A stretch of DNA of 64,000 bases from Eledone cirrhosa (lineage: Eukaryota): the NCBI GenBank assembly GCA_964016885.1, contig OZ024743.1, positions 102,176,001-102,240,000 on the forward strand, written 5' to 3'. Positions 875 through 53,680 of this stretch are shown piece after piece; within the stretch, counting starts at the first letter, position 1; every line of letters begins with the position of its first letter. The position numbers and the translations under genes are program-made. The notes under the pieces were generated by a model, which was not told the origin of the DNA, ran no database searches, and saw only the letters and a list, made by a program, of their open reading frames with translations.

Positions 875-1146
875 ATATATGTGTGAGCGTGTGTGTGTAT
901 ATATATACTCACCATACAAATATACAGATGCGTGGTTTAGTCTGGTGTCGTAGAGACACACATACTGATATATATGTATAGATACACACAAACAGACGCA
1001 CTCATATATTTACACACACACACATACATATCTGTCTTTTTGTATGTCTATATATGTGTATACATATATATATATATATTATTTATATTCAACAAATTTA
1101 AATGTTTATAACTGATTCAAAGCATTCGACAAGTTTTCTGGAGTAT

Positions 1147-3611: not shown

Positions 3612-4934
3612 TTGAAAATTTTACAATTTCTACCGCCGAAGCGGAGAAAAATGACAATAACACACAGGAAAACAGCAAAAAAACCCATTGACATACATAC
3701 ACATGAAAAAGACATCAACAACTCTACAGATACATCTACACATAAAGTTTCCAACAACGATAACATCATCATCAACAACAACACCACACAAAAAAAGAAA
3801 ATGTCTTTCGCTGACACAGTGAACAAGAAACACGATTTTATAAATCTTGATATCTCCAACGCAAGAGATATGCTCCAGCAAGGGAGAAAATTTGTAACTT
3901 TCGAAGAAAGAGGTGGGTTTAGAATTAACTCACCCCTTGAAATAAAGGAAGACACAAACCGCCGATCAGTCACTTTTAGGACTGTGTCAAATTCGTCAAT
4001 AAAGCCAACATTTGTTAATCAAGCAGATATAGAAGATTCTTTCAAGGAAATTCTAGCAAATGTCGATTTTCTTCAGCGAGGAAAACAGTGCGGAAGTGTT
4101 TCCGTACTGTTTAAAAGCGAGGCACTCGCCCCAAAAAACTCTGTGACACCAATAGTGTCAAAAGCATACACCTTTTTCCCTACATACATGGGGAAAAGGA
4201 CACAAAAAATAAAAATAAAAAACATACCTCCAAGCATTAACATCTGGTGGATCTTGGCTGGCTTCGTAGAGCCAGAAACAGACATAATACTTTCGATACG
4301 AAAATCTATTCGACAAAGGTGGGCGGGCACCGATTTGGAGATTCTGTTGCAAATGAAACCGGAGAGAATCTCCAAAATACCCGAAAGAGTCGTTATTGAT
4401 AATAACAACAAAATAAACATTTCGGTAGAAGGACGAAAATGTCATTGCTTTCGCTGTGGTAGCACATCTCACCTAAAAGCCTCTTGTCCACAAACACACA
4501 ACAGCAACATCATAAAAAAAAACGCTATTACCAACACCAACACCAAAACAACCACCACCACCACAAGTACAGCGACAGACGAAACGAGCAACCACACCAA
4601 AACAAACAGACACTCAACCAACAACAACAGAAAAAACAGAGACAACACCCCTGAAGAACACACCCCACTCCATCCCACTCCATCAAACACTACCACAAAC
4701 ACACATACCGAAACACCACCACCACCACACAACATACCCTTACCCCACACACATGACGATGATTATTCATCGACGGATGAAGCTGCTTCTCCTTCTTTAA
4801 GTGAAGAAGAGGGAGAACCGCGGAAATCTAAAAAACAAAAAAAGAGACACCACAAAACGCCCAAAACCCACCAAATAAAATTTTCACAGGACGTTGCAAC
4901 CCCTGCCACAAACTCATCAACCGCGTCCTGTTGA
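3612..4934 (+). CDS. LINE ORF1 nucleic-acid-binding protein
   Basis: 440-aa ORF with CFRCGSTSHLKASC zinc knuckle preceded by VEGR (also in the 58689-60143 ORF1); true start probably upstream in the 3473-3691 frame. Confidence 0.75.
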   Translation: MKILQFLPPKRRKMTITHRKTAKKPIDIHTHEKDINNSTDTSTHKVSNNDNIIINNNTTQKKKMSFADTVNKKHDFINLDISNARDMLQQGRKFVTFEERGGFRINSPLEIKEDTNRRSVTFRTVSNSSIKPTFVNQADIEDSFKEILANVDFLQRGKQCGSVSVLFKSEALAPKNSVTPIVSKAYTFFPTYMGKRTQKIKIKNIPPSINIWWILAGFVEPETDIILSIRKSIRQRWAGTDLEILLQMKPERISKIPERVVIDNNNKINISVEGRKCHCFRCGSTSHLKASCPQTHNSNIIKKNAITNTNTKTTTTTTSTATDETSNHTKTNRHSTNNNRKNRDNTPEEHTPLHPTPSNTTTNTHTETPPPPHNIPLPHTHDDDYSSTDEAASPSLSEEEGEPRKSKKQKKRHHKTPKTHQIKFSQDVATPATNSSTASC

Positions 4935-5058
4935 AAGGTTTCCCCACCCCACCCAACACCCCATCCAGCACCCAAATGGAGATTGAACAACCCGATCTCC
5001 AGGAAACGAAAAGGTAAGTGCACCTTTCGTCCTTTTTCTCCAACTTTTCTTCACCAAC

Positions 5059-8000
5059 ATGGCTGGTTTACGAGTTGGAACCGTGAATGTGCGTGGCCTA
5101 GGGATGCCCTGGAAACAGGGTCACACAGTATGGATATGATAGCCATCACCGAGTGCAGGATCCACAACAGGCAGCAACTAACCCCATCTTCGACGACTTT
5201 GAGATCTACACATCTCTCTGTCAGCCAGGAGGTGGAGGTGGAGTGGCTGTTATGTTTCGGAAGAACCTGGACGTCGGAGTACAGCAAGTACACTTGGACC
5301 CGGTGGGTAGACTGGTAGTCCTAGACGTGAACAGTATCGGAGGTGGAGCCTTCAGACTGGTGGCCGTTTATGCCCGGACCGGGCAATCGCAATCACGGCC
5401 AGACTTCTTTAAGCGTCTAGACTCTTTTCTGGGAACGTCTCGCTCCTTACTTTTAGTGGGGGACTGGAATGGTATCCTAGATGCACGATGGGACTATGTG
5501 GGAGCATACCCCAGTAGAGCGGGGTGCAACAGCCTCAAAACTTTAATCGGCCAATTCCAACTGGCCGATAGGTATCGACTGGATTTCCCGACTGCACCAC
5601 AGTGGACGTGGGTAAACCGCAGTGGGACATCTAGATCGTATTTAGATAGGTTCTTCATTAGAGAAAGGGACAAGGAGATGTTAAGCTGTCCACGAATGCA
5701 CATGGTTGCCTATTCAGATCACAAGTTAGTCGTCTGCTTAGTCAACCGTGATAGAATACATAGACAGGGTCCCGGATACTGGAAGCTGAACGTGTCGTTG
5801 CCGACACGTAAAGCTTACAGTGAACGGATAAGTAGACTAGTCAAGCAACAGTTAACGGGAGCCATCGTCAACAATAGATGGTGGTACTCTCTCAAGAAAG
5901 CAATTAGAATAGAATCGATAGGGTATAGCAGAGAGTTATCGTTAGAGAAAAACAGAATAGAAAGAGAACTAGTAGCCAAGGTAGGGGAGGCACTTAGAAG
6001 TGGCAACGCGGCTAGAGTGTTAGCGTCGAGAACGGCACTGGACCAGTTCTTCGATGCGAAACACGACGGCTGCGTGGTCACAAGCAAAACACGTGCTCTA
6101 GGAAACGAAGGAGCGAAAGCTGTCAGCTGGGCCCGAGTGGCGGAGGCAAAAAGTGGCAACAAGTCCACGATTCGGTCTTTGAAAGACCAAAACAGACGCG
6201 TGATACTTGACCCCAAGCAAATGTGCGCGGCCTTTCAGCGGCACTTTGCGCGACTGTTTGAGCAGAACGACGGTGATCCGAACGGGGCAATGGACTTTAG
6301 TTCATACCTCGACGGCCTGCCGCGTCTCTCGAACACAGACGCCGAGTTCTGCGAAAGACCGATCAAGGACACTGAGATACGGGACGCTCTGGGCCGCTGC
6401 GGGAAACGCAAGTCACCCGATCTAGATGGTCTACCCTACGAATTTTACATAGGCATGCCGGACTTGTTCTCTGGCGTCCTCGAAGCCGTCTACTGCAATT
6501 GGCAACAGAACGGGAGAATTCCCAGTTCTGCAGGCAAGGGCGTAGTAACGCTGATCAGGAAAGACGAGAACAAGGGGGACGAAATTAACAACTTCAGGCC
6601 CATAACTCTGATCAACACAGAGTTAAAGATTTTGGCCAAGTTAAAGATTTTGGCAAAGTTAAAGATTTGGGACTGCGCAAAGCGGCGTCGGCTTATGCCG
6701 ACGACGTAGCGGTAATGGTGTCGAGCACCTCGGAAATCGGGGTGATCGGCAACATACTGAAAGAATACGAAACGCTGACGGGAGCAAAACTAAACCCAGA
6801 CAAGTCTGTCGGTTTGCAACTCGGTACGTGGAGAGGCAAACCGATGACATCCGACAGCGTCGTTGGACGCTGGACGGACGGACCGGTGAAATTGCTCGGG
6901 GTCTGGTTCGGTCGAGACCTCCAGGTGGAGAAAAACTGGAACGAGGTCACGGCCAAGGTGTTTGCACTCACTCAGAAGTGGGCAGAGTGCAAACTGTCCT
7001 TAAAAGGTCGAGCGTAGGTGGCGAACACTTTCATAGCGTCCGTCATCTACTACCGCTTGACTGTCGTGCCTTGTCCCCGTGAACATCTCGCCAAGATGGA
7101 ACGCATGCTCTTCCAGTTTCTGTGGAAGAAGCAGGCTCCGCTGGTGAGGAGATCCGTCTGCTGTCAGCACCCTTCGAACGGAGGGCTGGGTATGCTGTGG
7201 CTGATGATGCGCAAACATACGCTGAGGCTGCGGCATCTCCAGGTATTCCTCACCGACCCCCAACCGGTGTGGGCACCGTTTGTGAGACAGGCTTTCCCAC
7301 AGCTCGTCTCGCTAACGGAGCTGCAGTGCTGCGTGAAGAAAAGACCGAAAACGATGGGCGCCTGGCACATTGAATGCGCTCAGGCGCTCACAGTCCTCTG
7401 GCAAGCGGGCGCAGCAATCAGTGGAGACTCCACTTCGACATTCTATAGAGGGATTGTACGTTACAAGGGCAACGACGTGCTCGGAGAGACTCTGGGCGTC
7501 GAAGACGATGAGCTCACCAGTCTGTTTTGTAGGACTTTCCACCCGGGACCTATGGACAACTTCCAGAGGTCCCTGGCCTGGCAGTCCTACCGAGGAGCTC
7601 CACCGGTTCGTGACAAGATCTACAGGCATGGACGCCCTGGCAGGGATCCTTCCAAGAGGACGTGTCCAAGATGTGCGCAGGACATTGAAACAGTTCTGCA
7701 CGCAATTGTACACTGCCCGGGCGTAAGCGACCTGTGGAACTATGCAGAACAACTGCTGTCGCGTATGGCACAAATACAGTTGACTGCCGAGTCCATAGTA
7801 AGGATCAAACCGCCAGACTCTTTCAAAAACGAAAGAGAGACGGTTTTCCTCTGTACGGTGGCTATGGTGAAAGAAGTTATATGGTGGACGAGGTTGAGAG
7901 GACTGAGGACAGATGCCTTTCTCTCCGGACAACAATTGATTCCCTTCTTTAAGTATCACTTTAGAAGGAGAATCAGGGTGGAGAGAGAGGCACTGCACCC

Positions 8001-8079
8001 CAGTAAATTTACTGAAAGGTGGGTGAATGAAGCGAAAATGGCCCGAGTGATTGGGCCTTCTCTGTTTATAAGCCTGTAG
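5059..8079 (+). pseudogene. LINE ORF2 (APE endonuclease-RT), frameshifted, with internal RT deletion and premature stop
   Basis: MAGLRVGTVNVRGL, GDWN, SYLDR, SDHK, GPGYWKLN, FRPITLIN, then jumps straight to AYADD; CPRC…HAIVHC; stop at 7015-7017. Confidence 0.9.
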
Positions 8080-13184: not shown

Positions 13185-13250
13185 TTGTAACAAATTTTTC
13201 AAATTGATAATTATAATGCAATGAGAATTAATATACGCACTCACATATAC

Positions 13251-13317
<67 letters not shown>

Positions 13318-13332
13318 AGTGCGTATATATAC

Positions 13333-13366
<34 letters not shown>

Positions 13367-13456
13367 GTATATGTGAGTGCGTATATTAATTCTCATTGCA
13401 TTATAATTATCAATTTGAAAAATTTGTTACAAATAATAATAACAGGTGACACGCCA

Positions 13457-18871: not shown

Positions 18872-19365
<494 letters not shown>

Positions 19366-19609
19366 TTGCGAGGTTTTTTATATGAAATCGTGTGTCGAAA
19401 CAGATATTGTTATATTTGGGGAGGGTCATATTTGCGTAATATTGCCAGAATTAATAACAGAACACACTCACTGTTTGGTTGGTTTTCGCTTCTCGCTGTC
19501 TTTTATATATATATATCTGCGATCTAACTTACTCGGTCCTCAATGTTGCCATTGACTGACCGGCGGTCAAAAATAATACAGATACAATATAGACAAACAC
19601 ATATATATA

Positions 19610-19659
19610 TAGTTTACATAAATCTTTCGTTGCACATCTGCAACATCGTCAGTGGTGTT
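19610..19659 (-). ncRNA. Hammerhead ribozyme core, minus-strand copy
   Basis: Reverse complement at 19625-19652. Confidence 0.65.
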
Positions 19660-19932
19660 ATATTCATTGTTCCTCCTGTTGTGTTGTATGTCTACGCCAT
19701 TTTTTTTTTTGTTCAGTCTGTCTATATATTTATTTATTTATTTGCTTGTTTGTTTATCTTATTTTATTTTGTCTTCTTTGCGCATGCGTTTGCGTGTGTG
19801 TATAGTGTTATGTGTGATGTGTGATGTGTGACTAGTGTGTATAGTGTTGTCTGCTGGGTGACTAGTGTGTGTTTATGTGCTTGTGTATGTATTTATTTAT
19901 CTTATTTTATTTAATTTAATTTACTTATTTAT

Positions 19933-22900
19933 TTATACTTCTCTTAGGTCAGTGTTGTTTGTTTGGGTGTTGTTGTTGTTCCACTCATTCTTTCTGTTTA
20001 GCTTTGGTCTTCTAATTTCTATTTCACTGGCCTCTCTGATTTGCCTATCTGCTGGGTCATTCCTATGTTTAGATATTATTCTAATTTCTATGTTGTCTAT
20101 GTTACCGTCATGATGTTGTCTAGCATGTTCGTATAGTACTGACCCGTTTTTTCGTCCTTTTAGTTCCCCCCAGTGTTGGTCTATCCTTTCACCTATGCTA
20201 CGAGCTGTCTCACCTATGTATGTTGTTGTCGTGTTTCTGCAAGTACCCTCTGTACATCTTATGCTATAGACTACGTTTCTAGTTTTACAGTTTATCCGGG
20301 GGTTCACCTTACATATGATACATTTCCTATTGGTACAGTGGGTTTTCTTAAAAGGGTAGGTTTTGCTGATCAGGGATTTTATGGTGGTTCCTGGCTTTTC
20401 TACCACCTTTATTTTTAAGTGGGTCTTTCTCAGGGCCTTTCTACACTGGTTAGCTAATTTCCCTCCAGGGGTGGCGTCCACAAACATGACACTCTGATAT
20501 CTCTGGTTGTCGTACCATGATGTGGCCTTCCCTATCTTATGTCTAGCCCTATCTAAGCTATTCCATGATTTGCTCCTGTATAGTGGGCAAATTCCTTTCA
20601 TGTCCAGTTCTATGAGGGTCTTATACTTTTCCATGGCTCCTTCGTATACTCTGACTCTGTCTCTTTGGTTGTAGCCAGAGAACTGCATGCGGTTGATGAA
20701 GTGTTGGATGTGTCCTTCCATTTCTGTTGGGTCGCACATGCTGGACACATTCTTCATCACTCGTACCAAATCTGCGATCAGAATATTAAACTTAGCACTA
20801 CTGGACATTGCTGAGTTTTTGAGTATCAGGTATTTGGAGGCCATGGGTTTAGCATAGTGTGAGTGGAGAATTTGGGCTCTCTCGTCTATAGTGTTAATCC
20901 AGAGTTCTGTGTCTAATACAGGTAGTCTATTGTTAGGGTGTTTGGAAGGGAAGTCTATAGTTACAGTTATACTCTGGTGTATGGAATTAGCTATCTGCTG
21001 GATGCTTTCCATCGTGCTACGTTCTAAATCAAACTTGTTAGTGCTCTCTAGTGGGGGTGTTCTTATAACTATATTGATATCGTCTACATAACGAGAGTAC
21101 ATGATGAGGTCTATGGAGCTTTCATTAAGGAGATCTTTAAGTCTCCTTTCCCACCATACCATGAAAAGGTTGGCAACATCGCCAGCTATGCTGACGCCGA
21201 TGGCTGCTCCCTCATTTTGGGTGTAGATTTTCTCATTGAACTTAAATATGTGGCCCTTTAGGGTAGTTTTGATACTAGCCCCTATTGCATGTGCGACCAT
21301 TTTTCTTACCTGATCAGTGTTTTGGGGGGTCCGTATAGCTTTGGTCCACCCAATCCACCTTCCTATGGGAGTCTTTTTAGCCATTGAGGTTATGGTGGGG
21401 GGTCTACCTCTTATAGGTCTACTAGGGCAGAAACATCTAAGGTCATGGCTGTCTAGGTAGTCAGTGTCGTAGGTAAGTCTAAGTAGGAGGCCCAGTTCGT
21501 CTGTGTCGACGTCGCAGAACTCCACCTCACTCTCAATGATCATCTCCACACATCTTTTCACAGCAAAATCAATGTTAATGGATGGGTACAGTGACACCAC
21601 ATCCATGCTGCCTATTATGCAGTTGGATAGGCTCCTGTTTTTGTTGCACTCACTGATTCTGCTGAGGAGGTCCTCTGTACTTTCACATACATCTGGGGAC
21701 ATCTTGATTATGGGGCGTATAACCATTGAGAGGAAGTAGGAGATCCTGTAGTTGCTAGCTATATTAGCTCCGCATACAGGTCTTGTTGGTGGTCCTATTG
21801 TCGGGTCGTCGACTGTCTTGTGGTCTTTGCGGAGCCCATACAAGGGTGGTATGCCATTGTTAGACGCCTGGAAGTTGTTGGCAGTGCGTCTGCTTGGCTT
21901 TAGGATGTCAGTCCACATCATCATGTGAGCGTTGAGGATTTTTTCTCTCCCATCGTGTGTTAGTTGTGCAACTTCGCTCGTGTTGGTGATGTGGGGTTGC
22001 ATTGCCTCGATGTAGTTCGGCATGCTATCTATTGACATCCTACCAGACTTATCTGTGGGTAGACACACTACCTCACCATCCCTTGTGCGCTGCTTGAGGC
22101 TAACCAAGCCTTCTACAGGTTTTATCCCAAGTTGTTGGGCCTCTGGTCTGCTCTGTCTCATAGTGTACCTGTCTACTACTTGTCTAATCTTATTTCTAGC
22201 TATGGTGAACTGTGCCTCCGTCTCGTCATCTATTTGTTGTGGTATGCAAACTCTTTTATTAAAGGGTAACCTCGTAGGATAGATATTACCCATCTTATAT
22301 GTTTTGTCAGCTGGGTTGAAAAATAGTTTCTCTAAGGGGTTGTCGTTATTTCTATCGTCATAGTTGTGTGTGTTGCTATTATTGTTATCATGGTGGTTGT
22401 TGTTGTTTCTATCCTTAGCATTAATATTATTATTGTTATGATTGCTAGATGTATTGTTGTTTACTTCACCGTTATTGTTGTTGTTACTGCTATTTCTACC
22501 ATTGTGGTTGTTACTATTATTATGTTTCTTGTTTTTGTTGATGTTGCTACATGTACTATTTCCATTATTACCACTGTGGTTATTGTTGTTGTTGTTGTTC
22601 GTATTGTTACCGTTATTACTACTGTGGTCACTGTTGCTGTGTCTGTGGTTAACGTTTCTATTATTATTATTATTGTGGTTGTTGTTGTTCTGTCTATCGC
22701 TAGTATTATTACCATTATCACTATTTCTCACTTTCCTGCCATTGTTATGGTTATGGCTGTTATTTCTATACCCAGAGTTATTGTTTATATTACTACTACC
22801 GTTATTATTGTTGTTGTTGTTGTTTACCTTTGCATTCCAACGTATTTTTGTGAAACACTTTTCCAGCTCCGTTTTGCATTCCATAGGATTAATCTTTTTG

Positions 22901-23565
22901 TAGATGGCAAATTTTGGTGGTAACTTTAGGATTTGTTGTTCTTGTTCACTGATTAAAGTGTTCCCATAGATATTTACTGTGTGGTCATTGGTAAATTCTT
23001 CCGGTAGTTTTACATCACTCATACGGATGTTGTCGATGTTATCTGGGTATTTTTGAGAATATTCGATTTTCCTTTCTTGTAGTTTTTTCTTATTCATCCA
23101 TTCTAATTTCTTCTTGAAATGCCTACAGCATTCGTTTTGAGCATATTTCGTTTCGCGTCGGATGACGCTCATGAAGTCATCTCTCTCGTTTGCTGTGATG
23201 AGATTTCGGATTTCCTTACCGTTGATGCGTTTTTGTCTGTAGAGTGCGTTGACTTTTGTGTATGTTGTTCTTTTCATATTAACTGTTATTGTGTGTTTTA
23301 GCCGTTCAGCTTGTGTTTTGTTCAATAATAAATTATTTACTTGTTTTGATATGTTTGTTGTGTATGTTTTGGAGGAAACACAGTGTTTTAAGAAGCGGAT
23401 TTGTTCTGTTGTTATTGTAGTTTTTATATAACAGAAAACAGTGTCTTTCAATAACCTTTCAGCTTGGCACAAGCTAATGCCATAGCGGCGATGAATTAGT
23501 TTTGCGAGGTTTTTTATATGAAATCGTGTGTCGAAACAGATATTGTTATATTTGGGGAGGGTCAT
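19933..23565 (-). CDS. PLE polyprotein: reverse transcriptase + C-terminal GIY-YIG endonuclease (intact, 1210 aa)
   Basis: DKSG, LYGLRKDHK, RPV, SMDVVSLYPSI, GAAIG…ANLFM, RYVDD; Cys cluster CTNRKCIIC; NVVYSIRC…YIGETAR…R…H…HARQHH…REA…LN. Confidence 0.95.
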   Translation of the reverse strand: MTLPKYNNICFDTRFHIKNLAKLIHRRYGISLCQAERLLKDTVFCYIKTTITTEQIRFLKHCVSSKTYTTNISKQVNNLLLNKTQAERLKHTITVNMKRTTYTKVNALYRQKRINGKEIRNLITANERDDFMSVIRRETKYAQNECCRHFKKKLEWMNKKKLQERKIEYSQKYPDNIDNIRMSDVKLPEEFTNDHTVNIYGNTLISEQEQQILKLPPKFAIYKKINPMECKTELEKCFTKIRWNAKVNNNNNNNNGSSNINNNSGYRNNSHNHNNGRKVRNSDNGNNTSDRQNNNNHNNNNNRNVNHRHSNSDHSSNNGNNTNNNNNNNHSGNNGNSTCSNINKNKKHNNSNNHNGRNSSNNNNNGEVNNNTSSNHNNNNINAKDRNNNNHHDNNNSNTHNYDDRNNDNPLEKLFFNPADKTYKMGNIYPTRLPFNKRVCIPQQIDDETEAQFTIARNKIRQVVDRYTMRQSRPEAQQLGIKPVEGLVSLKQRTRDGEVVCLPTDKSGRMSIDSMPNYIEAMQPHITNTSEVAQLTHDGREKILNAHMMMWTDILKPSRRTANNFQASNNGIPPLYGLRKDHKTVDDPTIGPPTRPVCGANIASNYRISYFLSMVIRPIIKMSPDVCESTEDLLSRISECNKNRSLSNCIIGSMDVVSLYPSINIDFAVKRCVEMIIESEVEFCDVDTDELGLLLRLTYDTDYLDSHDLRCFCPSRPIRGRPPTITSMAKKTPIGRWIGWTKAIRTPQNTDQVRKMVAHAIGASIKTTLKGHIFKFNEKIYTQNEGAAIGVSIAGDVANLFMVWWERRLKDLLNESSIDLIMYSRYVDDINIVIRTPPLESTNKFDLERSTMESIQQIANSIHQSITVTIDFPSKHPNNRLPVLDTELWINTIDERAQILHSHYAKPMASKYLILKNSAMSSSAKFNILIADLVRVMKNVSSMCDPTEMEGHIQHFINRMQFSGYNQRDRVRVYEGAMEKYKTLIELDMKGICPLYRSKSWNSLDRARHKIGKATSWYDNQRYQSVMFVDATPGGKLANQCRKALRKTHLKIKVVEKPGTTIKSLISKTYPFKKTHCTNRKCIICKVNPRINCKTRNVVYSIRCTEGTCRNTTTTYIGETARSIGERIDQHWGELKGRKNGSVLYEHARQHHDGNIDNIEIRIISKHRNDPADRQIREASEIEIRRPKLNRKNEWNNNNTQTNNTDLREV

Positions 23566-23745
23566 ATTTGCGTAATATTGCCAGAATTAATAACAGAACA
23601 CACTCACTGTTTGGTTGGTTTTCGCTTCTCGCTGTCTTTTATATATATATATCTGCGATCTAACTTACTCGGTCCTCAATGTTGCCATTGACTGACCGGC
23701 GGTCAAAAATAATACAGATACAATATAGACAAACACATATATATA

Positions 23746-23795
23746 TAGTTTACATAAATCTTTCGTTGCACATCTGCAACATCGTCAGTGGTGTT
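23746..23795 (-). ncRNA. Hammerhead ribozyme core, minus-strand copy
   Basis: Reverse complement at 23761-23788. Confidence 0.65.
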
Positions 23796-24069
23796 ATATT
23801 CATTGTTCCTCCTGTTGTGTTGTATGTCTACGCCATTTTTTTTTTTTGTTCAGTCTGTCTATATATTTATTTATTTATTTGCTTGTTTGTTTATCTTATT
23901 TTATTTTGTCTTCTTTGCGCATGCGTTTGCGTGTGTGTATAGTGTTATGTGTGATGTGTGATGTGTGACTAGTGTGTATAGTGTTGTCTGCTGGGTGACT
24001 AGTGTGTGTTTATGTGCTTGTGTATGTATTTATTTATCTTATTTTATTTAATTTAATTTACTTATTTAT

Positions 24070-26677
24070 TTATACTTCTCTTAGGTCAGTGTTGTTTGTT
24101 TGGGTGTTGTTGTTGTTCCACTCATTCTTTCTGTTTAGCTTTGGTCTTCTAATTTCTATTTCACTGGCCTCTCTGATTTGCCTATCTGCTGGGTCATTCC
24201 TATGTTTAGATATTATTCTAATTTCTATGTTGTCTATGTTACCGTCATGATGTTGTCTAGCATGTTCGTATAGTACTGACCCGTTTTTTCGTCCTTTTAG
24301 TTCCCCCCAGTGTTGGTCTATCCTTTCACCTATGCTACGAGCTGTCTCACCTATGTATGTTGTTGTCGTGTTTCTGCAAGTACCCTCTGTACATCTTATG
24401 CTATAGACTACGTTTCTAGTTTTACAGTTTATCCGGGGGTTCACCTTACATATGATACATTTCCTATTGGTACAGTGGGTTTTCTTAAAAGGGTAGGTTT
24501 TGCTGATCAGGGATTTTATGGTGGTTCCTGGCTTTTCTACCACCTTTATTTTTAAGTGGGTCTTTCTCAGGGCCTTTCTACACTGGTTAGCTAATTTCCC
24601 TCCAGGGGTGGCGTCCACAAACATGACACTCTGATATCTCTGGTTGTCGTACCATGATGTGGCCTTCCCTATCTTATGTCTAGCCCTATCTAAGCTATTC
24701 CATGATTTGCTCCTGTATAGTGGGCAAATTCCTTTCATGTCCAGTTCTATGAGGGTCTTATACTTTTCCATGGCTCCTTCGTATACTCTGACTCTGTCTC
24801 TTTGGTTGTAGCCAGAGAACTGCATGCGGTTGATGAAGTGTTGGATGTGTCCTTCCATTTCTGTTGGGTCGCACATGCTGGACACATTCTTCATCACTCG
24901 TACCAAATCTGCGATCAGAATATTAAACTTAGCACTACTGGACATTGCTGAGTTTTTGAGTATCAGGTATTTGGAGGCCATGGGTTTAGCATAGTGTGAG
25001 TGGAGAATTTGGGCTCTCTCGTCTATAGTGTTAATCCAGAGTTCTGTGTCTAATACAGGTAGTCTATTGTTAGGGTGTTTGGAAGGGAAGTCTATAGTTA
25101 CAGTTATACTCTGGTGTATGGAATTAGCTATCTGCTGGATGCTTTCCATCGTGCTACGTTCTAAATCAAACTTGTTAGTGCTCTCTAGTGGGGGTGTTCT
25201 TATAACTATATTGATATCGTCTACATAACGAGAGTACATGATGAGGTCTATGGAGCTTTCATTAAGGAGATCTTTAAGTCTCCTTTCCCACCATACCATG
25301 AAAAGGTTGGCAACATCGCCAGCTATGCTGACGCCGATGGCTGCTCCCTCATTTTGGGTGTAGATTTTCTCATTGAACTTAAATATGTGGCCCTTTAGGG
25401 TAGTTTTGATACTAGCCCCTATTGCATGTGCGACCATTTTTCTTACCTGATCAGTGTTTTGGGGGGTCCGTATAGCTTTGGTCCACCCAATCCACCTTCC
25501 TATGGGAGTCTTTTTAGCCATTGAGGTTATGGTGGGGGGTCTACCTCTTATAGGTCTACTAGGGCAGAAACATCTAAGGTCATGGCTGTCTAGGTAGTCA
25601 GTGTCGTAGGTAAGTCTAAGTAGGAGGCCCAGTTCGTCTGTGTCGACGTCGCAGAACTCCACCTCACTCTCAATGATCATCTCCACACATCTTTTCACAG
25701 CAAAATCAATGTTAATGGATGGGTACAGTGACACCACATCCATGCTGCCTATTATGCAGTTGGATAGGCTCCTGTTTTTGTTGCACTCACTGATTCTGCT
25801 GAGGAGGTCCTCTGTACTTTCACATACATCTGGGGACATCTTGATTATGGGGCGTATAACCATTGAGAGGAAGTAGGAGATCCTGTAGTTGCTAGCTATA
25901 TTAGCTCCGCATACAGGTCTTGTTGGTGGTCCTATTGTCGGGTCGTCGACTGTCTTGTGGTCTTTGCGGAGCCCATACAAGGGTGGTATGCCATTGTTAG
26001 ACGCCTGGAAGTTGTTGGCAGTGCGTCTGCTTGGCTTTAGGATGTCAGTCCACATCATCATGTGAGCGTTGAGGATTTTTTCTCTCCCATCGTGTGTTAG
26101 TTGTGCAACTTCGCTCGTGTTGGTGATGTGGGGTTGCATTGCCTCGATGTAGTTCGGCATGCTATCTATTGACATCCTACCAGACTTATCTGTGGGTAGA
26201 CACACTACCTCACCATCCCTTGTGCGCTGCTTGAGGCTAACCAAGCCTTCTACAGGTTTTATCCCAAGTTGTTGGGCCTCTGGTCTGCTCTGTCTCATAG
26301 TGTACCTGTCTACTACTTGTCTAATCTTATTTCTAGCTATGGTGAACTGTGCCTCCGTCTCGTCATCTATTTGTTGTGGTATGCAAACTCTTTTATTAAA
26401 GGGTAACCTCGTAGGATAGATATTACCCATCTTATATGTTTTGTCAGCTGGGTTGAAAAATAGTTTCTCTAAGGGGTTGTCGTTATTTCTATCGTCATAG
26501 TTGTGTGTGTTGCTATTATTGTTATCATGGTGGTTGTTGTTGTTTCTATCCTTAGCATTAATATTATTATTGTTATGATTGCTAGATGTATTGTTGTTTA
26601 CTTCACCGTTATTGTTGTTGTTACTGCTATTTCTACCATTGTGGTTGTTACTATTATTATGTTTCTTGTTTTTGTTG
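24070..26677 (-). pseudogene. 5'-truncated copy of the PLE ORF (begins inside the Asn-rich tract; RT and EN uninterrupted)
   Basis: 786-aa ORF identical to the C-terminal part of the 1210-aa protein; truncated at the inversion junction. Confidence 0.9.
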
Positions 26678-27222
26678 ACGCCACCCCTGGAGGGAAATTA
26701 GCTAACCAGTGTAGAAAGGCCCTGAGAAAGACCCACTTAAAAATAAAGGTGGTAGAAAAGCCAGGAACCACCATAAAATCCCTGATCAGCAAAACCTACC
26801 CTTTTAAGAAAACCCACTGTACCAATAGGAAATGTATCATATGTAAGGTGAACCCCCGGATAAACTGTAAAACTAGAAACGTAGTCTATAGCATAAGATG
26901 TACAGAGGGTACTTGCAGAAACACGACAACAACATACATAGGTGAGACAGCTCGTAGCATAGGTGAAAGGATAGACCAACACTGGGGGGAACTAAAAGGA
27001 CGAAAAAACGGGTCAGTACTATACGAACATGCTAGACAACATCATGACGGTAACATAGACAACATAGAAATTAGAATAATATCTAAACATAGGAATGACC
27101 CAGCAGATAGGCAAATCAGAGAGGCCAGTGAAATAGAAATTAGAAGACCAAAGCTAAACAGAAAGAATGAGTGGAACAACAACAACACCCAAACAAACAA
27201 CACTGACCTAAGAGAAGTATAA
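26673..27222 (+). pseudogene. 5'-truncated PLE ORF, endonuclease portion only
   Basis: Identical to ~30813-31358 (DATPGGKL…DLREV*). Confidence 0.9.
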
Positions 27223-27495
27223 ATAAATAAGTAAATTAAATTAAATAAAATAAGATAAATAAATACATACACAAGCACATAAACACACACTAGTCACCCA
27301 GCAGACAACACTATACACACTAGTCACACATCACACATCACACATAACACTATACACACACGCAAACGCATGCGCAAAGAAGACAAAATAAAATAAGATA
27401 AACAAACAAGCAAATAAATAAATAAATATATAGACAGACTGAACAAAAAAAAAAATGGCGTAGACATACAACACAACAGGAGGAACAATGAATAT

Positions 27496-27545
27496 AACAC
27501 CACTGACGATGTTGCAGATGTGCAACGAAAGATTTATGTAAACTA
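27496..27545 (+). ncRNA. Hammerhead ribozyme core in PLE pseudo-LTR
   Basis: CTGACGA-t-GTTGCA-gatg-TGCAAC-GAAA (27503-27530); stems I and III not confidently assignable. Confidence 0.65.
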
Positions 27546-27639
27546 TATATATATGTGTTTGTCTATATTGTATCTGTATTATTTTTGACCGCCGGTCAGT
27601 CAATGGCAACATTGAGGACCGAGTAAGTTAGATCGCAGA

Positions 27640-27690
27640 TATATATATATAAAAGACAGCGAGAAGCGAAAACCAACCAAACAGTGAGTG
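27640..27690 (+). promoter_or_regulatory. Putative TATA box/initiator of the PLE pseudo-LTR promoter
   Basis: TATAAAAG at 27648-27655, CAGT at 27682-27685, ATG at 27726. Confidence 0.45.
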
Positions 27691-27725
27691 TGTTCTGTTA
27701 TTAATTCTGGCAATATTACGCAAAT

Positions 27726-30700
27726 ATGACCCTCCCCAAATATAACAATATCTGTTTCGACACACGATTTCATATAAAAAACCTCGCAAAACTAATTCAT
27801 CGCCGCTATGGCATTAGCTTGTGCCAAGCTGAAAGGTTATTGAAAGACACTGTTTTCTGTTATATAAAAACTACAATAACAACAGAACAAATCCGCTTCT
27901 TAAAACACTGTGTTTCCTCCAAAACATACACAACAAACATATCAAAACAAGTAAATAATTTATTATTGAACAAAACACAAGCTGAACGGCTAAAACACAC
28001 AATAACAGTTAATATGAAAAGAACAACATACACAAAAGTCAACGCACTCTACAGACAAAAACGCATCAACGGTAAGGAAATCCGAAATCTCATCACAGCA
28101 AACGAGAGAGATGACTTCATGAGCGTCATCCGACGCGAAACGAAATATGCTCAAAACGAATGCTGTAGGCATTTCAAGAAGAAATTAGAATGGATGAATA
28201 AGAAAAAACTACAAGAAAGGAAAATCGAATATTCTCAAAAATACCCAGATAACATCGACAACATCCGTATGAGTGATGTAAAACTACCGGAAGAATTTAC
28301 CAATGACCACACAGTAAATATCTATGGGAACACTTTAATCAGTGAACAAGAACAACAAATCCTAAAGTTACCACCAAAATTTGCCATCTACAAAAAGATT
28401 AATCCTATGGAATGCAAAACGGAGCTGGAAAAGTGTTTCACAAAAATACGTTGGAATGCAAAGGTAAACAACAACAACAACAATAATAACGGTAGTAGTA
28501 ATATAAACAATAACTCTGGGTATAGAAATAACAGCCATAACCATAACAATGGCAGGAAAGTGAGAAATAGTGATAATGGTAATAATACTAGCGATAGACA
28601 GAACAACAACAACCACAATAATAATAATAATAGAAACGTTAACCACAGACACAGCAACAGTGACCACAGTAGTAATAACGGTAACAATACGAACAACAAC
28701 AACAACAATAACCACAGTGGTAATAATGGAAATAGTACATGTAGCAACATCAACAAAAACAAGAAACATAATAATAGTAACAACCACAATGGTAGAAATA
28801 GCAGTAACAACAACAATAACGGTGAAGTAAACAACAATACATCTAGCAATCATAACAATAATAATATTAATGCTAAGGATAGAAACAACAACAACCACCA
28901 TGATAACAATAATAGCAACACACACAACTATGACGATAGAAATAACGACAACCCCTTAGAGAAACTATTTTTCAACCCAGCTGACAAAACATATAAGATG
29001 GGTAATATCTATCCTACGAGGTTACCCTTTAATAAAAGAGTTTGCATACCACAACAAATAGATGACGAGACGGAGGCACAGTTCACCATAGCTAGAAATA
29101 AGATTAGACAAGTAGTAGACAGGTACACTATGAGACAGAGCAGACCAGAGGCCCAACAACTTGGGATAAAACCTGTAGAAGGCTTGGTTAGCCTCAAGCA
29201 GCGCACAAGGGATGGTGAGGTAGTGTGTCTACCCACAGATAAGTCTGGTAGGATGTCAATAGATAGCATGCCGAACTACATCGAGGCAATGCAACCCCAC
29301 ATCACCAACACGAGCGAAGTTGCACAACTAACACACGATGGGAGAGAAAAAATCCTCAACGCTCACATGATGATGTGGACTGACATCCTAAAGCCAAGCA
29401 GACGCACTGCCAACAACTTCCAGGCGTCTAACAATGGCATACCACCCTTGTATGGGCTCCGCAAAGACCACAAGACAGTCGACGACCCGACAATAGGACC
29501 ACCAACAAGACCTGTATGCGGAGCTAATATAGCTAGCAACTACAGGATCTCCTACTTCCTCTCAATGGTTATACGCCCCATAATCAAGATGTCCCCAGAT
29601 GTATGTGAAAGTACAGAGGACCTCCTCAGCAGAATCAGTGAGTGCAACAAAAACAGGAGCCTATCCAACTGCATAATAGGCAGCATGGATGTGGTGTCAC
29701 TGTACCCATCCATTAACATTGATTTTGCTGTGAAAAGATGTGTGGAGATGATCATTGAGAGTGAGGTGGAGTTCTGCGACGTCGACACAGACGAACTGGG
29801 CCTCCTACTTAGACTTACCTACGACACTGACTACCTAGACAGCCATGACCTTAGATGTTTCTGCCCTAGTAGACCTATAAGAGGTAGACCCCCCACCATA
29901 ACCTCAATGGCTAAAAAGACTCCCATAGGAAGGTGGATTGGGTGGACCAAAGCTATACGGACCCCCCAAAACACTGATCAGGTAAGAAAAATGGTCGCAC
30001 ATGCAATAGGGGCTAGTATCAAAACTACCCTAAAGGGCCACATATTTAAGTTCAATGAGAAAATCTACACCCAAAATGAGGGAGCAGCCATCGGCGTCAG
30101 CATAGCTGGCGATGTTGCCAACCTTTTCATGGTATGGTGGGAAAGGAGACTTAAAGATCTCCTTAATGAAAGCTCCATAGACCTCATCATGTACTCTCGT
30201 TATGTAGACGATATCAATATAGTTATAAGAACACCCCCACTAGAGAGCACTAACAAGTTTGATTTAGAACGTAGCACGATGGAAAGCATCCAGCAGATAG
30301 CTAATTCCATACACCAGAGTATAACTGTAACTATAGACTTCCCTTCCAAACACCCTAACAATAGACTACCTGTATTAGACACAGAACTCTGGATTAACAC
30401 TATAGACGAGAGAGCCCAAATTCTCCACTCACACTATGCTAAACCCATGGCCTCCAAATACCTGATACTCAAAAACTCAGCAATGTCCAGTAGTGCTAAG
30501 TTTAATATTCTGATCGCAGATTTGGTACGAGTGATGAAGAATGTGTCCAGCATGTGCGACCCAACAGAAATGGAAGGACACATCCAACACTTCATCAACC
30601 GCATGCAGTTCTCTGGCTACAACCAAAGAGACAGAGTCAGAGTATACGAAGGAGCCATGGAAAAGTATAAGACCCTCATAGAACTGGACATGAAAGGAAT

Positions 30701-31358
30701 TTGCCCACTATACAGGAGCAAATCATGGAATAGCTTAGATAGGGCTAGACATAAGATAGGGAAGGCCACATCATGGTACGACAACCAGAGATATCAGAGT
30801 GTCATGTTTGTGGACGCCACCCCTGGAGGGAAATTAGCTAACCAGTGTAGAAAGGCCCTGAGAAAGACCCACTTAAAAATAAAGGTGGTAGAAAAGCCAG
30901 GAACCACCATAAAATCCCTGATCAGCAAAACCTACCCTTTTAAGAAAACCCACTGTACCAATAGGAAATGTATCATATGTAAGGTGAACCCCCGGATAAA
31001 CTGTAAAACTAGAAACGTAGTCTATAGCATAAGATGTACAGAGGGTACTTGCAGAAACACGACAACAACATACATAGGTGAGACAGCTCGTAGCATAGGT
31101 GAAAGGATAGACCAACACTGGGGGGAACTAAAAGGACGAAAAAACGGGTCAGTACTATACGAACATGCTAGACAACATCATGACGGTAACATAGACAACA
31201 TAGAAATTAGAATAATATCTAAACATAGGAATGACCCAGCAGATAGGCAAATCAGAGAGGCCAGTGAAATAGAAATTAGAAGACCAAAGCTAAACAGAAA
31301 GAATGAGTGGAACAACAACAACACCCAAACAAACAACACTGACCTAAGAGAAGTATAA
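27726..31358 (+). CDS. PLE polyprotein: reverse transcriptase + GIY-YIG endonuclease (intact, 1210 aa)
   Basis: Translation identical to 19933-23565(-). Confidence 0.95.
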   Translation: MTLPKYNNICFDTRFHIKNLAKLIHRRYGISLCQAERLLKDTVFCYIKTTITTEQIRFLKHCVSSKTYTTNISKQVNNLLLNKTQAERLKHTITVNMKRTTYTKVNALYRQKRINGKEIRNLITANERDDFMSVIRRETKYAQNECCRHFKKKLEWMNKKKLQERKIEYSQKYPDNIDNIRMSDVKLPEEFTNDHTVNIYGNTLISEQEQQILKLPPKFAIYKKINPMECKTELEKCFTKIRWNAKVNNNNNNNNGSSNINNNSGYRNNSHNHNNGRKVRNSDNGNNTSDRQNNNNHNNNNNRNVNHRHSNSDHSSNNGNNTNNNNNNNHSGNNGNSTCSNINKNKKHNNSNNHNGRNSSNNNNNGEVNNNTSSNHNNNNINAKDRNNNNHHDNNNSNTHNYDDRNNDNPLEKLFFNPADKTYKMGNIYPTRLPFNKRVCIPQQIDDETEAQFTIARNKIRQVVDRYTMRQSRPEAQQLGIKPVEGLVSLKQRTRDGEVVCLPTDKSGRMSIDSMPNYIEAMQPHITNTSEVAQLTHDGREKILNAHMMMWTDILKPSRRTANNFQASNNGIPPLYGLRKDHKTVDDPTIGPPTRPVCGANIASNYRISYFLSMVIRPIIKMSPDVCESTEDLLSRISECNKNRSLSNCIIGSMDVVSLYPSINIDFAVKRCVEMIIESEVEFCDVDTDELGLLLRLTYDTDYLDSHDLRCFCPSRPIRGRPPTITSMAKKTPIGRWIGWTKAIRTPQNTDQVRKMVAHAIGASIKTTLKGHIFKFNEKIYTQNEGAAIGVSIAGDVANLFMVWWERRLKDLLNESSIDLIMYSRYVDDINIVIRTPPLESTNKFDLERSTMESIQQIANSIHQSITVTIDFPSKHPNNRLPVLDTELWINTIDERAQILHSHYAKPMASKYLILKNSAMSSSAKFNILIADLVRVMKNVSSMCDPTEMEGHIQHFINRMQFSGYNQRDRVRVYEGAMEKYKTLIELDMKGICPLYRSKSWNSLDRARHKIGKATSWYDNQRYQSVMFVDATPGGKLANQCRKALRKTHLKIKVVEKPGTTIKSLISKTYPFKKTHCTNRKCIICKVNPRINCKTRNVVYSIRCTEGTCRNTTTTYIGETARSIGERIDQHWGELKGRKNGSVLYEHARQHHDGNIDNIEIRIISKHRNDPADRQIREASEIEIRRPKLNRKNEWNNNNTQTNNTDLREV

Positions 31359-31631
31359 ATAAATAAGTAAATTAAATTAAATAAAATAAGATAAATAAAT
31401 ACATACACAAGCACATAAACACACACTAGTCACCCAGCAGACAACACTATACACACTAGTCACACATCACACATCACACATAACACTATACACACACGCA
31501 AACGCATGCGCAAAGAAGACAAAATAAAATAAGATAAACAAACAAGCAAATAAATAAATAAATATATAGACAGACTGAACAAAAAAAAAAATGGCGTAGA
31601 CATACAACACAACAGGAGGAACAATGAATAT

Positions 31632-31681
31632 AACACCACTGACGATGTTGCAGATGTGCAACGAAAGATTTATGTAAACTA
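31632..31681 (+). ncRNA. Hammerhead ribozyme core, second plus-strand copy
   Basis: Same sequence at 31639-31666. Confidence 0.65.
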
Positions 31682-31879
31682 TATATATATGTGTTTGTCT
31701 ATATTGTATCTGTATTATTTTTGACCGCCGGTCAGTCAATGGCAACATTGAGGACCGAGTAAGTTAGATCGCAGATATATATATATAAAAGACAGCGAGA
31801 AGCGAAAACCAACCAAACAGTGAGTGTGTTCTGTTATTAATTCTGGCAATATTACGCAAATATGACCCTCCCCAAATAT

Positions 31880-31930
<51 letters not shown>

Positions 31931-31964
31931 TATGTATATGTATGTACATATACATATGCTACGG

Positions 31965-32050
<86 letters not shown>

Positions 32051-32076
32051 ACAAATATATGTGTGTGTATATATAT

Positions 32077-32264
32077 AACAAAGCAAGTGTGATAAAGAAC
32101 CAGGTCGACCATAACCCACCGGAGTACTCGATACTTAGGATAGTAGAGTGGGTAATAGGAAAAGAGCCAGGACCCCGACGGCTGAGCTCCGGTCGTTTCG
32201 ACAGCTAGATCTGAACTAGTTGTCGAAACGGCCGGAGCTCAGCCATCGGGGTCCTGACTATTTT

Positions 32265-32270
<6 letters not shown>
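32077..32270 (-). mobile_element. Short (TA)n-flanked terminal-hairpin element, second copy
   Basis: Arms ~32155-32208 / 32216-32269; homologous to 1593-1785; contains GAAACGGCCG. Confidence 0.65.
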
Positions 32271-32690: not shown

Positions 32691-32723
<33 letters not shown>

Positions 32724-33372
32724 ATAAGGAAAAGCGAAGTAGTTTCAGGTGTTCAAGTCTTCTAATAATAATATTGTGATATATATTTCAATGGCGACAG
32801 TGTCCACACTGTTCTGTGTGCCAGTGTCGCGACATCGTCAGACAGCTTGTTACATAATAAGGTTATGTTTCCGAGGCAATCCAAATTGAATCGACATGGG
32901 AACGGACGAAGTGTGTGCTTTTGGGTTCTTCATCCGTTCCTCTGTGAGTATCAATTCACCCCCACCGGTCTGCGCAGGTCCAGAGGAAGTTGACCATTAG
33001 TTACCGCAGATTTCAACGAAATTCGCTTAGTCAGTTCCCCTCTCAGCCAAACAATGACCCATTCAGGCCTGTGCCATAGTTTACTGCTACCCATCCCGTC
33101 TGTGGCAGTCAGCCGAAAGCCAGAGGGGATGGGAGAGTGTTAGTATCTACAGGTCACAATACTACCTCTCACCAAGCATGGACAGTACAATTGACCATCA
33201 ACCCCTAAGAGAAAATATACTTAATTCTAGGTATCATGATTTCACATTGGAAGTTATGAGTGAGTGTTGGAAATAAAAATAAAAATTTAAAATCGAAAAT
33301 CCTAAATCAAATATCAGAAAATTATAAATTAAAAAATTAAAACATATCTCTGCATATTATTTACTCACTTCA

Positions 33373-33554
33373 GGGCGGTGGATTGGCAGAGTTGGTAGAG
33401 GGTTGGACATGCTTTCCAGCATAGTTACGTCCCTTTACGATCTGAGTTCAAATCCCGCCAAGGTTAACTTTGCCTTTCATCCTTACGAGGTTGATAAAAT
33501 AAAGTACCAGTAATGTACTGTGTACTTGCTGGCCTTGTGTCGAAAGTAGAAACA
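33373..33554 (+). mobile_element. tRNA-derived SINE, full length
   Basis: A/B box-like head; 17-bp TSD ATTATTTACTCACTTCA (33356-33372, 33555-33571). Confidence 0.92.
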
Positions 33555-34244
33555 ATTATTTACTCACTTCAATCTATATATTTTTTACTCACCTCAATCC
33601 AGATTCTCACCTGAACATTTTTTTAATTTCTAATTGTTAATTTTTTAATTTTTTAATTTTTTAATTTATAATTTTCTGATATTTGATTTAGGATTTTCGA
33701 TTTTAAATTTTAATTTTTATTTCCAACTCTCACTCATAACTTCCAATGTGAAACCATGATACCTAGAATTAAGTATATTTTCTCTTAGGGTTTGATGGTC
33801 AATTGTATTGTCCATGCTTGGTGAGAGGTAGTATTGGGACCTGTAAATACTAACACTCTCCCATCCCCACTGGGTTTCGGCTGACTGCCACAGACGGGAT
33901 GGGTAGCAGTAAACTATGGCACAGGCCTGAATGGGTCATTGTTTTGGCTGAGAAGGGGAACTGACTAAGCGAATTTCGTTGAAATCTGCGGTAGCTAATG
34001 GTCAACTTCCTCTGGTCCTGCGCCTGCGCAGACCGGTGGGGGGTGAATTGGTTCTCACAGGGGAACGGATGAAGAACCCAAAAGCACAAACTTCGTCCGT
34101 TCCCATGTCGATTCAATTTGGATTGCCTTGGAAACAACTTTATTATGTAACAAGCTGTCTGACGATGTCGCGACACTGGCACACTGAACAGTGTGGACAC
34201 TGTCGCCATTGAAATATATATCACAGCATTATTATTAAAAGACT

Positions 34245-34279
34245 GGGTAATTGCTGACCTTGTGCCTAAAGTAGAAAGA
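34245..34279 (+). mobile_element. Extremely 5'-truncated SINE (~35 bp)
   Basis: SINE tail flanked by duplication ATTATTATTAAAAGACT (~34228 and 34280); absent from the left foldback arm. Confidence 0.85.
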
Positions 34280-34406
34280 ATTATTATTAAAAGACTTGAA
34301 CATCTGAAACTACTTCACTTTTCCTTATTCAATATTTACTCCATCACTCCTATGTGGAATAAGTACGTTGAGTGGTTGAATTGAATTGCCTCAATGTTTA
34401 CCCTAA

Positions 34407-53622: not shown

Positions 53623-53680
<58 letters not shown>

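What the first reader, a model, noticed from the sequence alone, without database searches (positions are those of the whole stretch)
19361..31888. 12.5-kb palindromic, greater-than-unit-length Penelope-like insertion: two outward-facing multimeric cDNAs fused at a microhomology
Seen: a 4136-bp unit (ORF + pseudo-LTR) is copied ~1.8 times on the minus strand and ~1.3 times on the plus strand. The truncated 5' ends meet at 26671-26678 through TTTGT(T/G)GA microhomology. Both 3' ends run past the pseudo-LTR into the next ORF start (~68 and ~26 nt) and stop where the element reads like TA repeat. The only difference I noticed among copies is one poly-T length. Known: PLEs form tandem and inverted insertions. 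Inference: two priming events on opposite strands of one (TA)n site each copied a multimeric or circular RNA, leaving two intact, promoter-bearing copies of a probably active family.
Basis: partly seen in the sequence, partly recalled or inferred. Interest (0 to 1): 0.85.

Follow-up and report, generated by a model that had tools for sequence, protein, structure and literature searches.

The report
Oversized head-to-head Penelope retrotransposon insertion
Two near-identical, longer-than-one-unit copies of a Penelope-like jumping gene sit head to head inside a TA repeat of what is probably an octopus genome; this is the textbook layout for these elements at unusual length, likely made in one recent insertion, and it does not by itself show a circular RNA.

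Summary
A 4136-bp Penelope-like (PLE) unit occurs 1.77 times on the minus strand and 1.26 times on the plus strand. The arms join at a 7/8 microhomology and end at ORF +69 and +26 in (TA)n; the only other difference among copies is one poly-T length. The 1210-aa ORF is an RT with a C-terminal GIY-YIG nuclease and Nematis-type linker; best hit Octopus vulgaris, 68%. The layout is the published PLE norm: partial tandem, inverted 5'-truncated copy, one-ended tail. Two-strand priming at two internal sites was shown in vitro, and more-than-unit copying from circles was proposed in 2014. Public reads show a large, 5'-truncated family with at least nine other head-to-head joints and near-identical young copies. 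No displayed read or contig bridges this locus's own junction, so it is not independently verified. What is unusual is that both arms exceed one unit, roughly 0.1% of endonuclease-containing arm pairs if arms truncate independently. Dual priming is likeliest; fold-back copying fits too. The scan noted a head-to-head PLE pair before, in another genome. New member of a known kind.

The parts
19328..19362 (.). (AT)n left target remnant
   Evidence: TRF 17.5 copies
19361..19429 (-). Left 3' end: ORF start +1..+69, including the 43-nt tail (19361-19403) absent from the right end
19430..19932 (-). Outer left pseudo-LTR (503 nt)
19619..19652 (-). Minimal hammerhead-like motif (core, stem II, stem III; 2-bp stem I)
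19933..23565 (-). Complete 1210-aa RT + GIY-YIG ORF
   Evidence: sequence identical to 27726-31358
23566..24069 (-). Inner left pseudo-LTR (504 nt; carries the 12-T variant at 23836; hammerhead core at 23788)
24070..26678 (-). 5'-truncated ORF copy (ORF nt 1025 to stop), broken inside the Asn-rich linker at aa 342
24622..26670 (.). 2049-bp non-palindromic spacer between the inverted arms
26671..26678 (.). Head-to-head junction, 7/8 microhomology; keeps the left-arm base at the mismatch
26671..27222 (+). 5'-truncated ORF copy (ORF nt 3082 to stop; endonuclease part)
27223..27725 (+). Inner right pseudo-LTR (503 nt); presumed promoter
   Evidence: promoter inferred from PMC2377424
27503..27536 (+). 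Minimal hammerhead-like motif: CUGACGA core, 6-bp stem II, GAA, self-complementary stem III, 2-bp stem I
   Evidence: no Rfam hit
27726..31358 (+). Complete 1210-aa ORF: PPKF (aa 216), DKS (505), YVDD (826), CX4CxxC linker (1077-1085), GIY-YIG with CCHH (1100-1152)
28455..28961 (+). Asn-rich linker (aa 244-412, 49% N) N-terminal to the RT
31359..31861 (+). Outer right pseudo-LTR (hammerhead core at 31639)
31862..31887 (+). Right 3' end: ORF start +1..+26
31884..32077 (.). Compound (TA)n right target remnant

Best explanation
This is a head-to-head pair of more-than-unit copies of one Nematis-type Penelope-like retrotransposon inside a (TA)n tract, likely made in a single recent insertion in which both nicked strands of the target primed reverse transcription. 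Shown: the anatomy, the identity of the copies, the microhomology, the two ends 43 nt apart, the domain motifs. Inferred: the element's GIY-YIG nuclease nicked both strands of the self-complementary TA tract. One 3'-OH primed at ORF +69 and the other at ORF +26. Each cDNA ran back through pLTR, ORF and a second pLTR into the preceding unit (7.3 and 5.2 kb). The two cDNA ends annealed at the 8-nt microhomology and repair filled in. The template had to be continuous across unit boundaries. An uncleaved tandem transcript is the reading best backed by in-vitro data (about 0.4); an RNA circle (about 0.3) or a seamless homologous template jump at the pLTR (about 0.3) cannot be told apart by sequence. 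It is the long tail of the family's ordinary truncation spectrum, not a new mechanism.
For: One donor: copies identical but for one homopolymer, while family records span 90-100% identity (X1: 4264 at >=99%, 5568 at 95-99%, 5399 at 90-95%, of 15231 laid). The three window copies that cover position 25934 share an allele that X1, X3 and X6 contigs do not show, and 63 of 65 and 117 of 117 X22 reads carry the other base. Family ends: depth falls 44-, 28-, 227- and 20-fold across 27795/27796 in four runs; two X6 contigs leave the element at +64 and +71 into TA repeat. Same geometry elsewhere: nine distinct antisense-ORF to sense-pLTR joints among the displayed rows of RAD run X22 (15 of 242 joints and 12 of 116 insert rows shown; 52-207 reads each); two hammerhead-bearing inverted pairs in this window; relative L008. 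In those nine joints a 1.4-2.9 kb arm is paired with a 0.05-0.26 kb arm, as expected if each arm truncates on its own. Seven contig depths in X3 fall exponentially with distance from the 3' end (0.61 per kb, r = -0.99). In vitro an anole PLE nicks and extends both strands, starts at two internal sites that bound the tail, is predicted to be a dimer and does not need ribozyme cleavage (PMC11167929). The 12-T variant of the inner left pLTR is not mirrored in the right arm, weakly against fold-back.
Against: No displayed contig or read bridges 26671-26678 (24 of 16213 pieces shown). Two independent arms this long are rare: about 7% x 2% = 0.14% of endonuclease-containing arm pairs by rough extrapolation, whereas fold-back yields two long arms for free. 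Small palindromes in the window have arms of equal length with short centres, which suggests coupled arms in some insertions. No family end at +26 is among the 24 of 1709 loose-end rows shown. The nine RAD joints seen in table 5 each start at one place, so PCR chimeras are possible. The in-vitro work is on another clade (Poseidon).
Confidence: 0.5

Rival explanations
1. Fold-back: one priming at +69 made the 7.3-kb cDNA; its 3' end annealed to the single 7/8 complementary site 2049 nt back on itself and was extended along its own strand to +26, where ATAT annealed to the other target end.
For: The right arm is exactly the reverse complement of 19404-24621; the longer arm carries the tail; the junction keeps the left-arm base; both arms hold two pLTRs without needing a coincidence. 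Equal-armed palindromes at 1145-1503 and 18964-19241. Self-priming was proposed for PLE palindromes (PMC3846280).
Against: The 12-T variant is not copied into the mirror pLTR (could be later slippage or consensus error). In vitro both tail ends are RT start sites on either strand (PMC11167929). A fresh cDNA end is still paired to RNA unless stripped (inference).
Confidence: 0.27
2. Assembly error: a standard inverted-plus-partial-tandem insertion whose unit count was inflated or whose spacer was flipped by the assembler, or a chimeric-read junction.
For: Units are 99.97-100% identical, so only reads over 12.5 kb fix the count; such structures are known to break assemblies (PMC8557442); junction not bridged; no genome held.
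Against: A read fold-back would mirror the sequence about its centre and copy one flank. Here the centre is a 2049-bp asymmetric spacer with microhomology, the flanks differ, the ends differ by a PLE-type tail, and the left end falls where the family ends in independent runs.
Confidence: 0.1
3. Two-step or DNA-level origin: two separate insertions into the same TA tract later fused by deletion, or a shorter inverted insertion expanded by unequal exchange between repeats.
For: The window is a TA-rich landing ground with many PLE remnants (12 hammerhead-like motifs versus a mean of 0.3 in 20 shuffles); microhomology joins also arise in deletion repair.
Against: No TA remnant or tail at the inner tandem boundaries or at the junction; shared rare alleles mean one donor; ORF nt 70-1024 exists only in full units, so at least one arm had to exceed a unit from the start.
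Confidence: 0.1

Closest known systems
Canonical EN+ PLE insertion (Drosophila virilis Penelope; Craig et al. 2021 Fig. 2 legend, PMC8557442; Schostak et al. 2008, PMC2377424)
   Same: Partial tandem forming pLTRs, inverted 5'-truncated copy at the 5' end, tail at one end only, hammerhead motif in the pLTR.
   Different: The inverted part is itself a partial tandem with a complete ORF, so both arms exceed one unit (7.3 and 5.2 kb); tail 43 nt versus the 30-40 reported.
Nematis clade PLEs (versus Neptune)
   Same: C-terminal GIY-YIG with CCHH and an upstream CX2-5CxxC linker; 7 residues to the next cysteine, like the Nematis rows of Craig Fig. S2; (TA)n target as reported for linker-bearing clades.
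   Different: No reference tree built; DKS instead of DKG; 170-aa Asn-rich linker; unit 4.1 kb.
PAc, Poseidon element of Anolis (Frangieh et al. 2024, PMC11167929)
   Same: Two ends inside the ORF start in AC-rich sequence; AT-rich target; geometry expected from both-strand priming.
   Different: Start sites at +26/+69 rather than near +111-118; other clade; no biochemistry here.
Adineta vaga Penelope families (Arkhipova et al. 2013, PMC3846280)
   Same: Head-to-head inverted repeats, microhomology junctions, long Asn-rich in-frame insert.
   Different: Insert lies N-terminal to the RT, not between RT and thumb or RT and EN; the junction here is not a palindrome.
L1 twin priming (recalled from memory, not read here)
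   Same: Both 3' ends face outward, inner ends joined at microhomology.
   Different: In L1 the two cDNAs copy mostly non-overlapping parts of one linear RNA from a poly(A) start; here they overlap by 5.2 kb and start inside the ORF.

Membership tests
Canonical EN+ Penelope-like element | Single ORF with RT and C-terminal GIY-YIG endonuclease | tested here: met
   YVDD aa 826; YSIRC...YIGET aa 1100-1120; invariant in the 14-sequence alignment. Pfam gives 0 hits on the query itself; 2 of 14 members hit RVT_1 and 1 of 14 GIY-YIG, weakly.
Canonical EN+ Penelope-like element | CCHH motif in the endonuclease | tested here: met
   C1104, C1109 invariant; H1147, H1152 in at least 90% of 14.
Canonical EN+ Penelope-like element | N-terminal GxKF/Y and DKG motifs | tested here: met
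   As variants: PPKF aa 216 and DKS aa 505, the latter invariant in 14 of 14; other clades vary the third residue.
Canonical EN+ Penelope-like element | Pseudo-LTRs formed by partial tandem | tested here: met
Canonical EN+ Penelope-like element | Inverted 5'-truncated copy at the 5' end and a 30-40 bp tail at one end | tested here: met
   Inverted arm; tail 43 nt (41-47 with ambiguity), slightly longer than reported.
Canonical EN+ Penelope-like element | Hammerhead ribozyme in the pLTR | tested here: inconclusive
   Core, stem II and stem III in all four pLTRs but only 2 contiguous stem I pairs; no Rfam match; 70850 of 94106 X22 reads have an extra base there; relatives L001 and L007 (2 of 9 loci) have 5-bp stem I motifs behind the ORF. 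Cleavage untested.
Canonical EN+ Penelope-like element | Target-site duplication | not testable with these tools
   Both flanks are (TA)n; no empty allele available.
Canonical EN+ Penelope-like element | Retained spliceosomal intron; RT sister to telomerase | not tested
   No run on record as RNA; no reference RT set; PDB search gave only weak bacterial RT hits.
Nematis clade | Short CX2-5CxxC linker before GIY-YIG | tested here: met
   C1077-x4-C1082-x2-C1085, 7 aa to C1093, compared by eye with Fig. S2 text of PMC8557442, where Neptune rows have about 20-25 residues there.
Nematis clade | RT phylogeny groups with Nematis references | not tested
   No reference sequences available to the tools.
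Naiad/Chlamys | N-terminal endonuclease | tested here: not met
   Endonuclease is C-terminal.
Hydra | No CCHH; CxCX5C linker; DKT | tested here: not met
   CCHH and CX4CxxC present.
Penelope/Poseidon | No Zn-finger-like linker | tested here: not met
   Linker present.

The most novel reading that the evidence does not exclude
A PLE dimer primed both strands of one (TA)n site on a hammerhead-made 4136-nt RNA circle, and each RT ran more than one full lap: a two-sided rolling-circle footprint that names the exact circle junction (27536/27537) to test in a young, abundant family.
Probability: 0.17. Interest if true: 0.65.

Novelty: new member of a known kind. Interest (0 to 1): 0.3.

Why it matters
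How PLEs regenerate their tandem pseudo-LTRs is an acknowledged open question (PMC2377424, PMC8557442). This locus does not answer it. It does supply an intact, young element with exact ends, a large family and a clean long example, so a genome-wide count of arm lengths and tail sides could separate dual priming from fold-back, and an RT-PCR could test the circle. A 5.2-kb near-perfect inverted repeat with two outward-reading ORFs may also be a fragile site, and the locus is an assembly test case (inference).

Tried and rejected
Own-genome search: no genome held, so no copy census or empty site. Sequencing runs: no RNA holder listed; this says nothing on expression. Junction in reads: at 26676 the ordinary G makes up 33089.3 of 33100.1 depth in X1 and 20406 of 20475 plus 194 of 196 reads in X22. 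The 10.8 residual in X1 could be a junction contig or a divergent copy, so it is not counted. Rfam at E<=5 on 26600-28000: 0 hits. Pfam on the ORF: 0 families. PDB sequence search: weak bacterial RT matches only. tblastn of 109 homologs: no PLE ORF remnant outside the element. Bacterial promoter scan: at chance level and not applicable. Folding of the ORF start showed no strong structure at +26/+69. One RAD joint starts at 27536, beside the predicted ribozyme cut, but 1 of 9 is within chance and not used. The 177-aa antisense ORFs (22390-22923, 28368-28901) are the reverse of the Asn codons, not genes. Read fold-back artefact rejected as the main reading because of the asymmetric centre. Earlier-finding look-ups by sequence and by place were empty. 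Searches for a printed case with both arms over one unit found none stated outright, but figures are not visible and the 2002-2006 Penelope papers were not read. Papers that added nothing: PMC9977147, PMC12910113 (passages).
Full report
1. Observation. A 4136-bp unit (3633-bp ORF plus 503-bp pseudo-LTR) runs on the minus strand from 26678 to 19361 (7318 nt, 1.77 units) and on the plus strand from 26671 to 31887 (5217 nt, 1.26 units). The right arm is the reverse complement of 19404-24621; a 2049-bp spacer separates the arms, so the structure is an asymmetric inverted repeat. Five pairwise alignments show only two variable sites: a poly-T of 12 instead of 11 in the inner left pLTR, and the mismatch inside the junction. 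The junction joins ORF nt 1025 to ORF nt 3082 through a 7/8 match. That is the only such match in the unit, and 0.038% of 200,000 random 8-mer pairs do as well. The ends lie at ORF +69 and +26, both running into (TA)n, so one end has a 43-nt tail.

2. What it is. The two complete ORFs encode the same 1210-aa protein. Its RT-EN part found 109 homologs among 5106 candidates, best an Octopus vulgaris protein at 68%; the host is therefore probably an octopus (inference). [quoted passage not shown] The short linker resembles the Nematis rows, not the Neptune rows, of Craig et al. Fig. S2 (read as text); no tree was built. Residues 244-412 are 49% Asn. Pfam has no hit on the query. Each pLTR holds a minimal hammerhead-like motif; my scan found 12 such motifs in the window against a mean of 0.3 in 20 shuffles, four of them in this element. 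Its stem I has only two contiguous pairs and Rfam finds nothing, so activity is open.

3. The family. No genome is held. Of 24 listed runs, 6 hold at least half the sampled words, under three organism labels; none is on record as RNA. I laid four runs on 24622-28749. The family is large and diverse (X1: 15231 records, spread over 90-100% identity) and strongly 5'-truncated. Depth drops 20- to 227-fold right after 27795, where the left arm ends, and two X6 contigs leave at +64 and +71 into TA repeat. Contigs in X3 and X6 match the window over 200-515 nt with 0-3 differences, so this subfamily is young and occurs in other samples. The window's three copies share an allele at 25934 that is nearly absent from all four runs, which points to one donor. 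Among the rows shown for RAD run X22 (15 of 242 joints, 12 of 116 insert rows) nine distinct joints lead from antisense ORF into sense pLTR, the same head-to-head geometry with a 1.4-2.9 kb arm and a 0.05-0.26 kb arm; those in the joint table each come from one start site, so some may be chimeras. Against the reading: none of the 24 displayed pieces (of 16213) bridges this locus's junction, and no +26 end is among the 24 of 1709 loose-end rows. Seven X3 contig depths fall exponentially along the unit (0.61 per kb, r = -0.99); extrapolated, 7% and 2% of endonuclease-containing arms reach 5.2 and 7.3 kb, 0.14% both (rough, contig depth is no copy number, and X3 carries another organism label).

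4. Local and distant parallels. The window holds two smaller outward-facing inverted pairs with hammerhead cores in both arms (1145-1503; 32722-34330) and further palindromes beside TA tracts. Of 9 metagenome loci, L001 and L007 have a 5-bp-stem-I hammerhead behind the ORF and a terminal direct repeat, L003 ends in (TA)n, and L008 is an asymmetric head-to-head junction inside the ORF (the output was cut within the rows of L002).

5. Mechanism. Shown: anatomy, identity, microhomology, ends. Inferred, best reading (0.5): both strands of one TA tract were nicked and primed at +69 and +26, two cDNAs ran 7.3 and 5.2 kb over a template continuous across units, and their ends joined at the microhomology. 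A pLTR-initiated single-unit transcript cannot give these arms, since they reach 552 and 2609 nt upstream of the inner pLTRs. The template was a tandem transcript, a circle or a seamless jump; sequence cannot choose. Rival (0.27): one cDNA folded back on the single complementary site 2049 nt behind its end. This explains two long arms without coincidence and fits the equal-armed small palindromes, but the 12-T variant is not mirrored and in-vitro data make both tail ends start sites. Misassembly (0.1) and two-step origins (0.1) remain.

6. Compared with print. Craig et al. 2021 (PMC8557442; passages; supplement parts 1-2 and a search) describe partial tandems, an adjacent inverted 5'-truncated copy, a 30-40 bp tail at one end and (TA)n targeting. 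Schostak et al. 2008 (PMC2377424; passages and Discussion) call the tandem flanked by large inverted repeats the commonest D. virilis form, with 30% of copies tandem. Arkhipova et al. 2013 (PMC3846280; parts 1-4 of 5) report head-to-head repeats, microhomology junctions, Asn-rich inserts and a self-priming model. Cervera and de la Pena 2014 (PMC4209133; passages) propose circular RNA as template for more-than-unit copying and report low ribozyme activity. Frangieh et al. 2024 (PMC11167929; parts 1-2 of 4) show both-strand nicking and extension, two internal start sites bounding the tail, no need for ribozyme cleavage, and favour a multimeric mRNA. Bonar et al. 2026 (PMC13282606; passages) count 336 recently active PLE insertions in 31 families in O. 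vulgaris. PMC7761336 (passages) and bioRxiv 10.64898/2026.07.22.740005 (part 1 of 5) give the retrozyme background. L1 twin priming is recalled, not read. Seven searches found no text stating that both arms exceed a unit, but figures, the Frangieh supplements and older Penelope papers were not seen, and Craig's legend says all variants occur. An earlier scan note (e1-7508860, unchecked) describes a head-to-head pair of full PLE copies in another genome.

7. Verdict. Real in the assembly, probably real in the animal, and a long example of the standard PLE insertion. New member of a known kind; interest 0.3. It becomes more if a 4.1-kb circle is found or if a family census settles dual priming against fold-back.

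Noticed in passing
window 1145-1503: About 350-bp near-perfect palindrome next to (AT)n with a hammerhead core in each arm, both facing outward: a miniature head-to-head PLE of another family with equal arms.
   Followed up: partly
window 32722-34330: Inverted pair of about 600-bp arms (94%) with hammerhead motifs at 32841 (-) and 34159 (+) and a SINE-like piece in the centre.
   Followed up: partly
window 18964-19241, 32155-32269, 1671-1786, 13185-13432: Further palindromes beside TA tracts without a detected hammerhead; short PLE ends or hairpin elements.
   Followed up: no
window 17795 (+), 13719 (-), 52863 (-), 34527 (+), 2475 (-): Solo minimal hammerhead-like motifs, probably pLTR remnants of other families.
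   Followed up: no
window 26527-27222 (+): The junction creates a 231-aa in-frame chimera: a Val/Ile-rich antisense stretch fused to the whole endonuclease domain. No evidence of expression.
   Followed up: no
window 27533-27559: Most family reads differ from the window in the 3' strand of the hammerhead's stem I (extra base behind 27538 in 75% of X22 reads; 27557 and 27559 in about 97%), so this young subfamily may carry a variant or weakened ribozyme.
   Followed up: partly
window 3651-8079 (+) and 55233-60122 (-): Two related (about 73%) two-ORF LINEs with AP endonuclease, RT, zf-RVT and a zinc-knuckle ORF1, split by frameshifts.
   Followed up: no
window 53570-54772 (+): C-terminal part of a non-LTR element with zf-RVT and a restriction-like nuclease motif, flanked by (AAT)n.
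   Followed up: no
window 51849-52380: 2.6 tandem copies of a 205-bp SINE-like unit.
   Followed up: no
L008 1-1040: Distant relative with an asymmetric head-to-head junction, both breaks inside the ORF, about 750-nt spacer.
   Followed up: partly
family-wide: C>T and G>A changes outnumber A>G and T>C in all four runs (X22: 88 and 77 versus 51 and 49), as from methylation decay; not examined.
   Followed up: no
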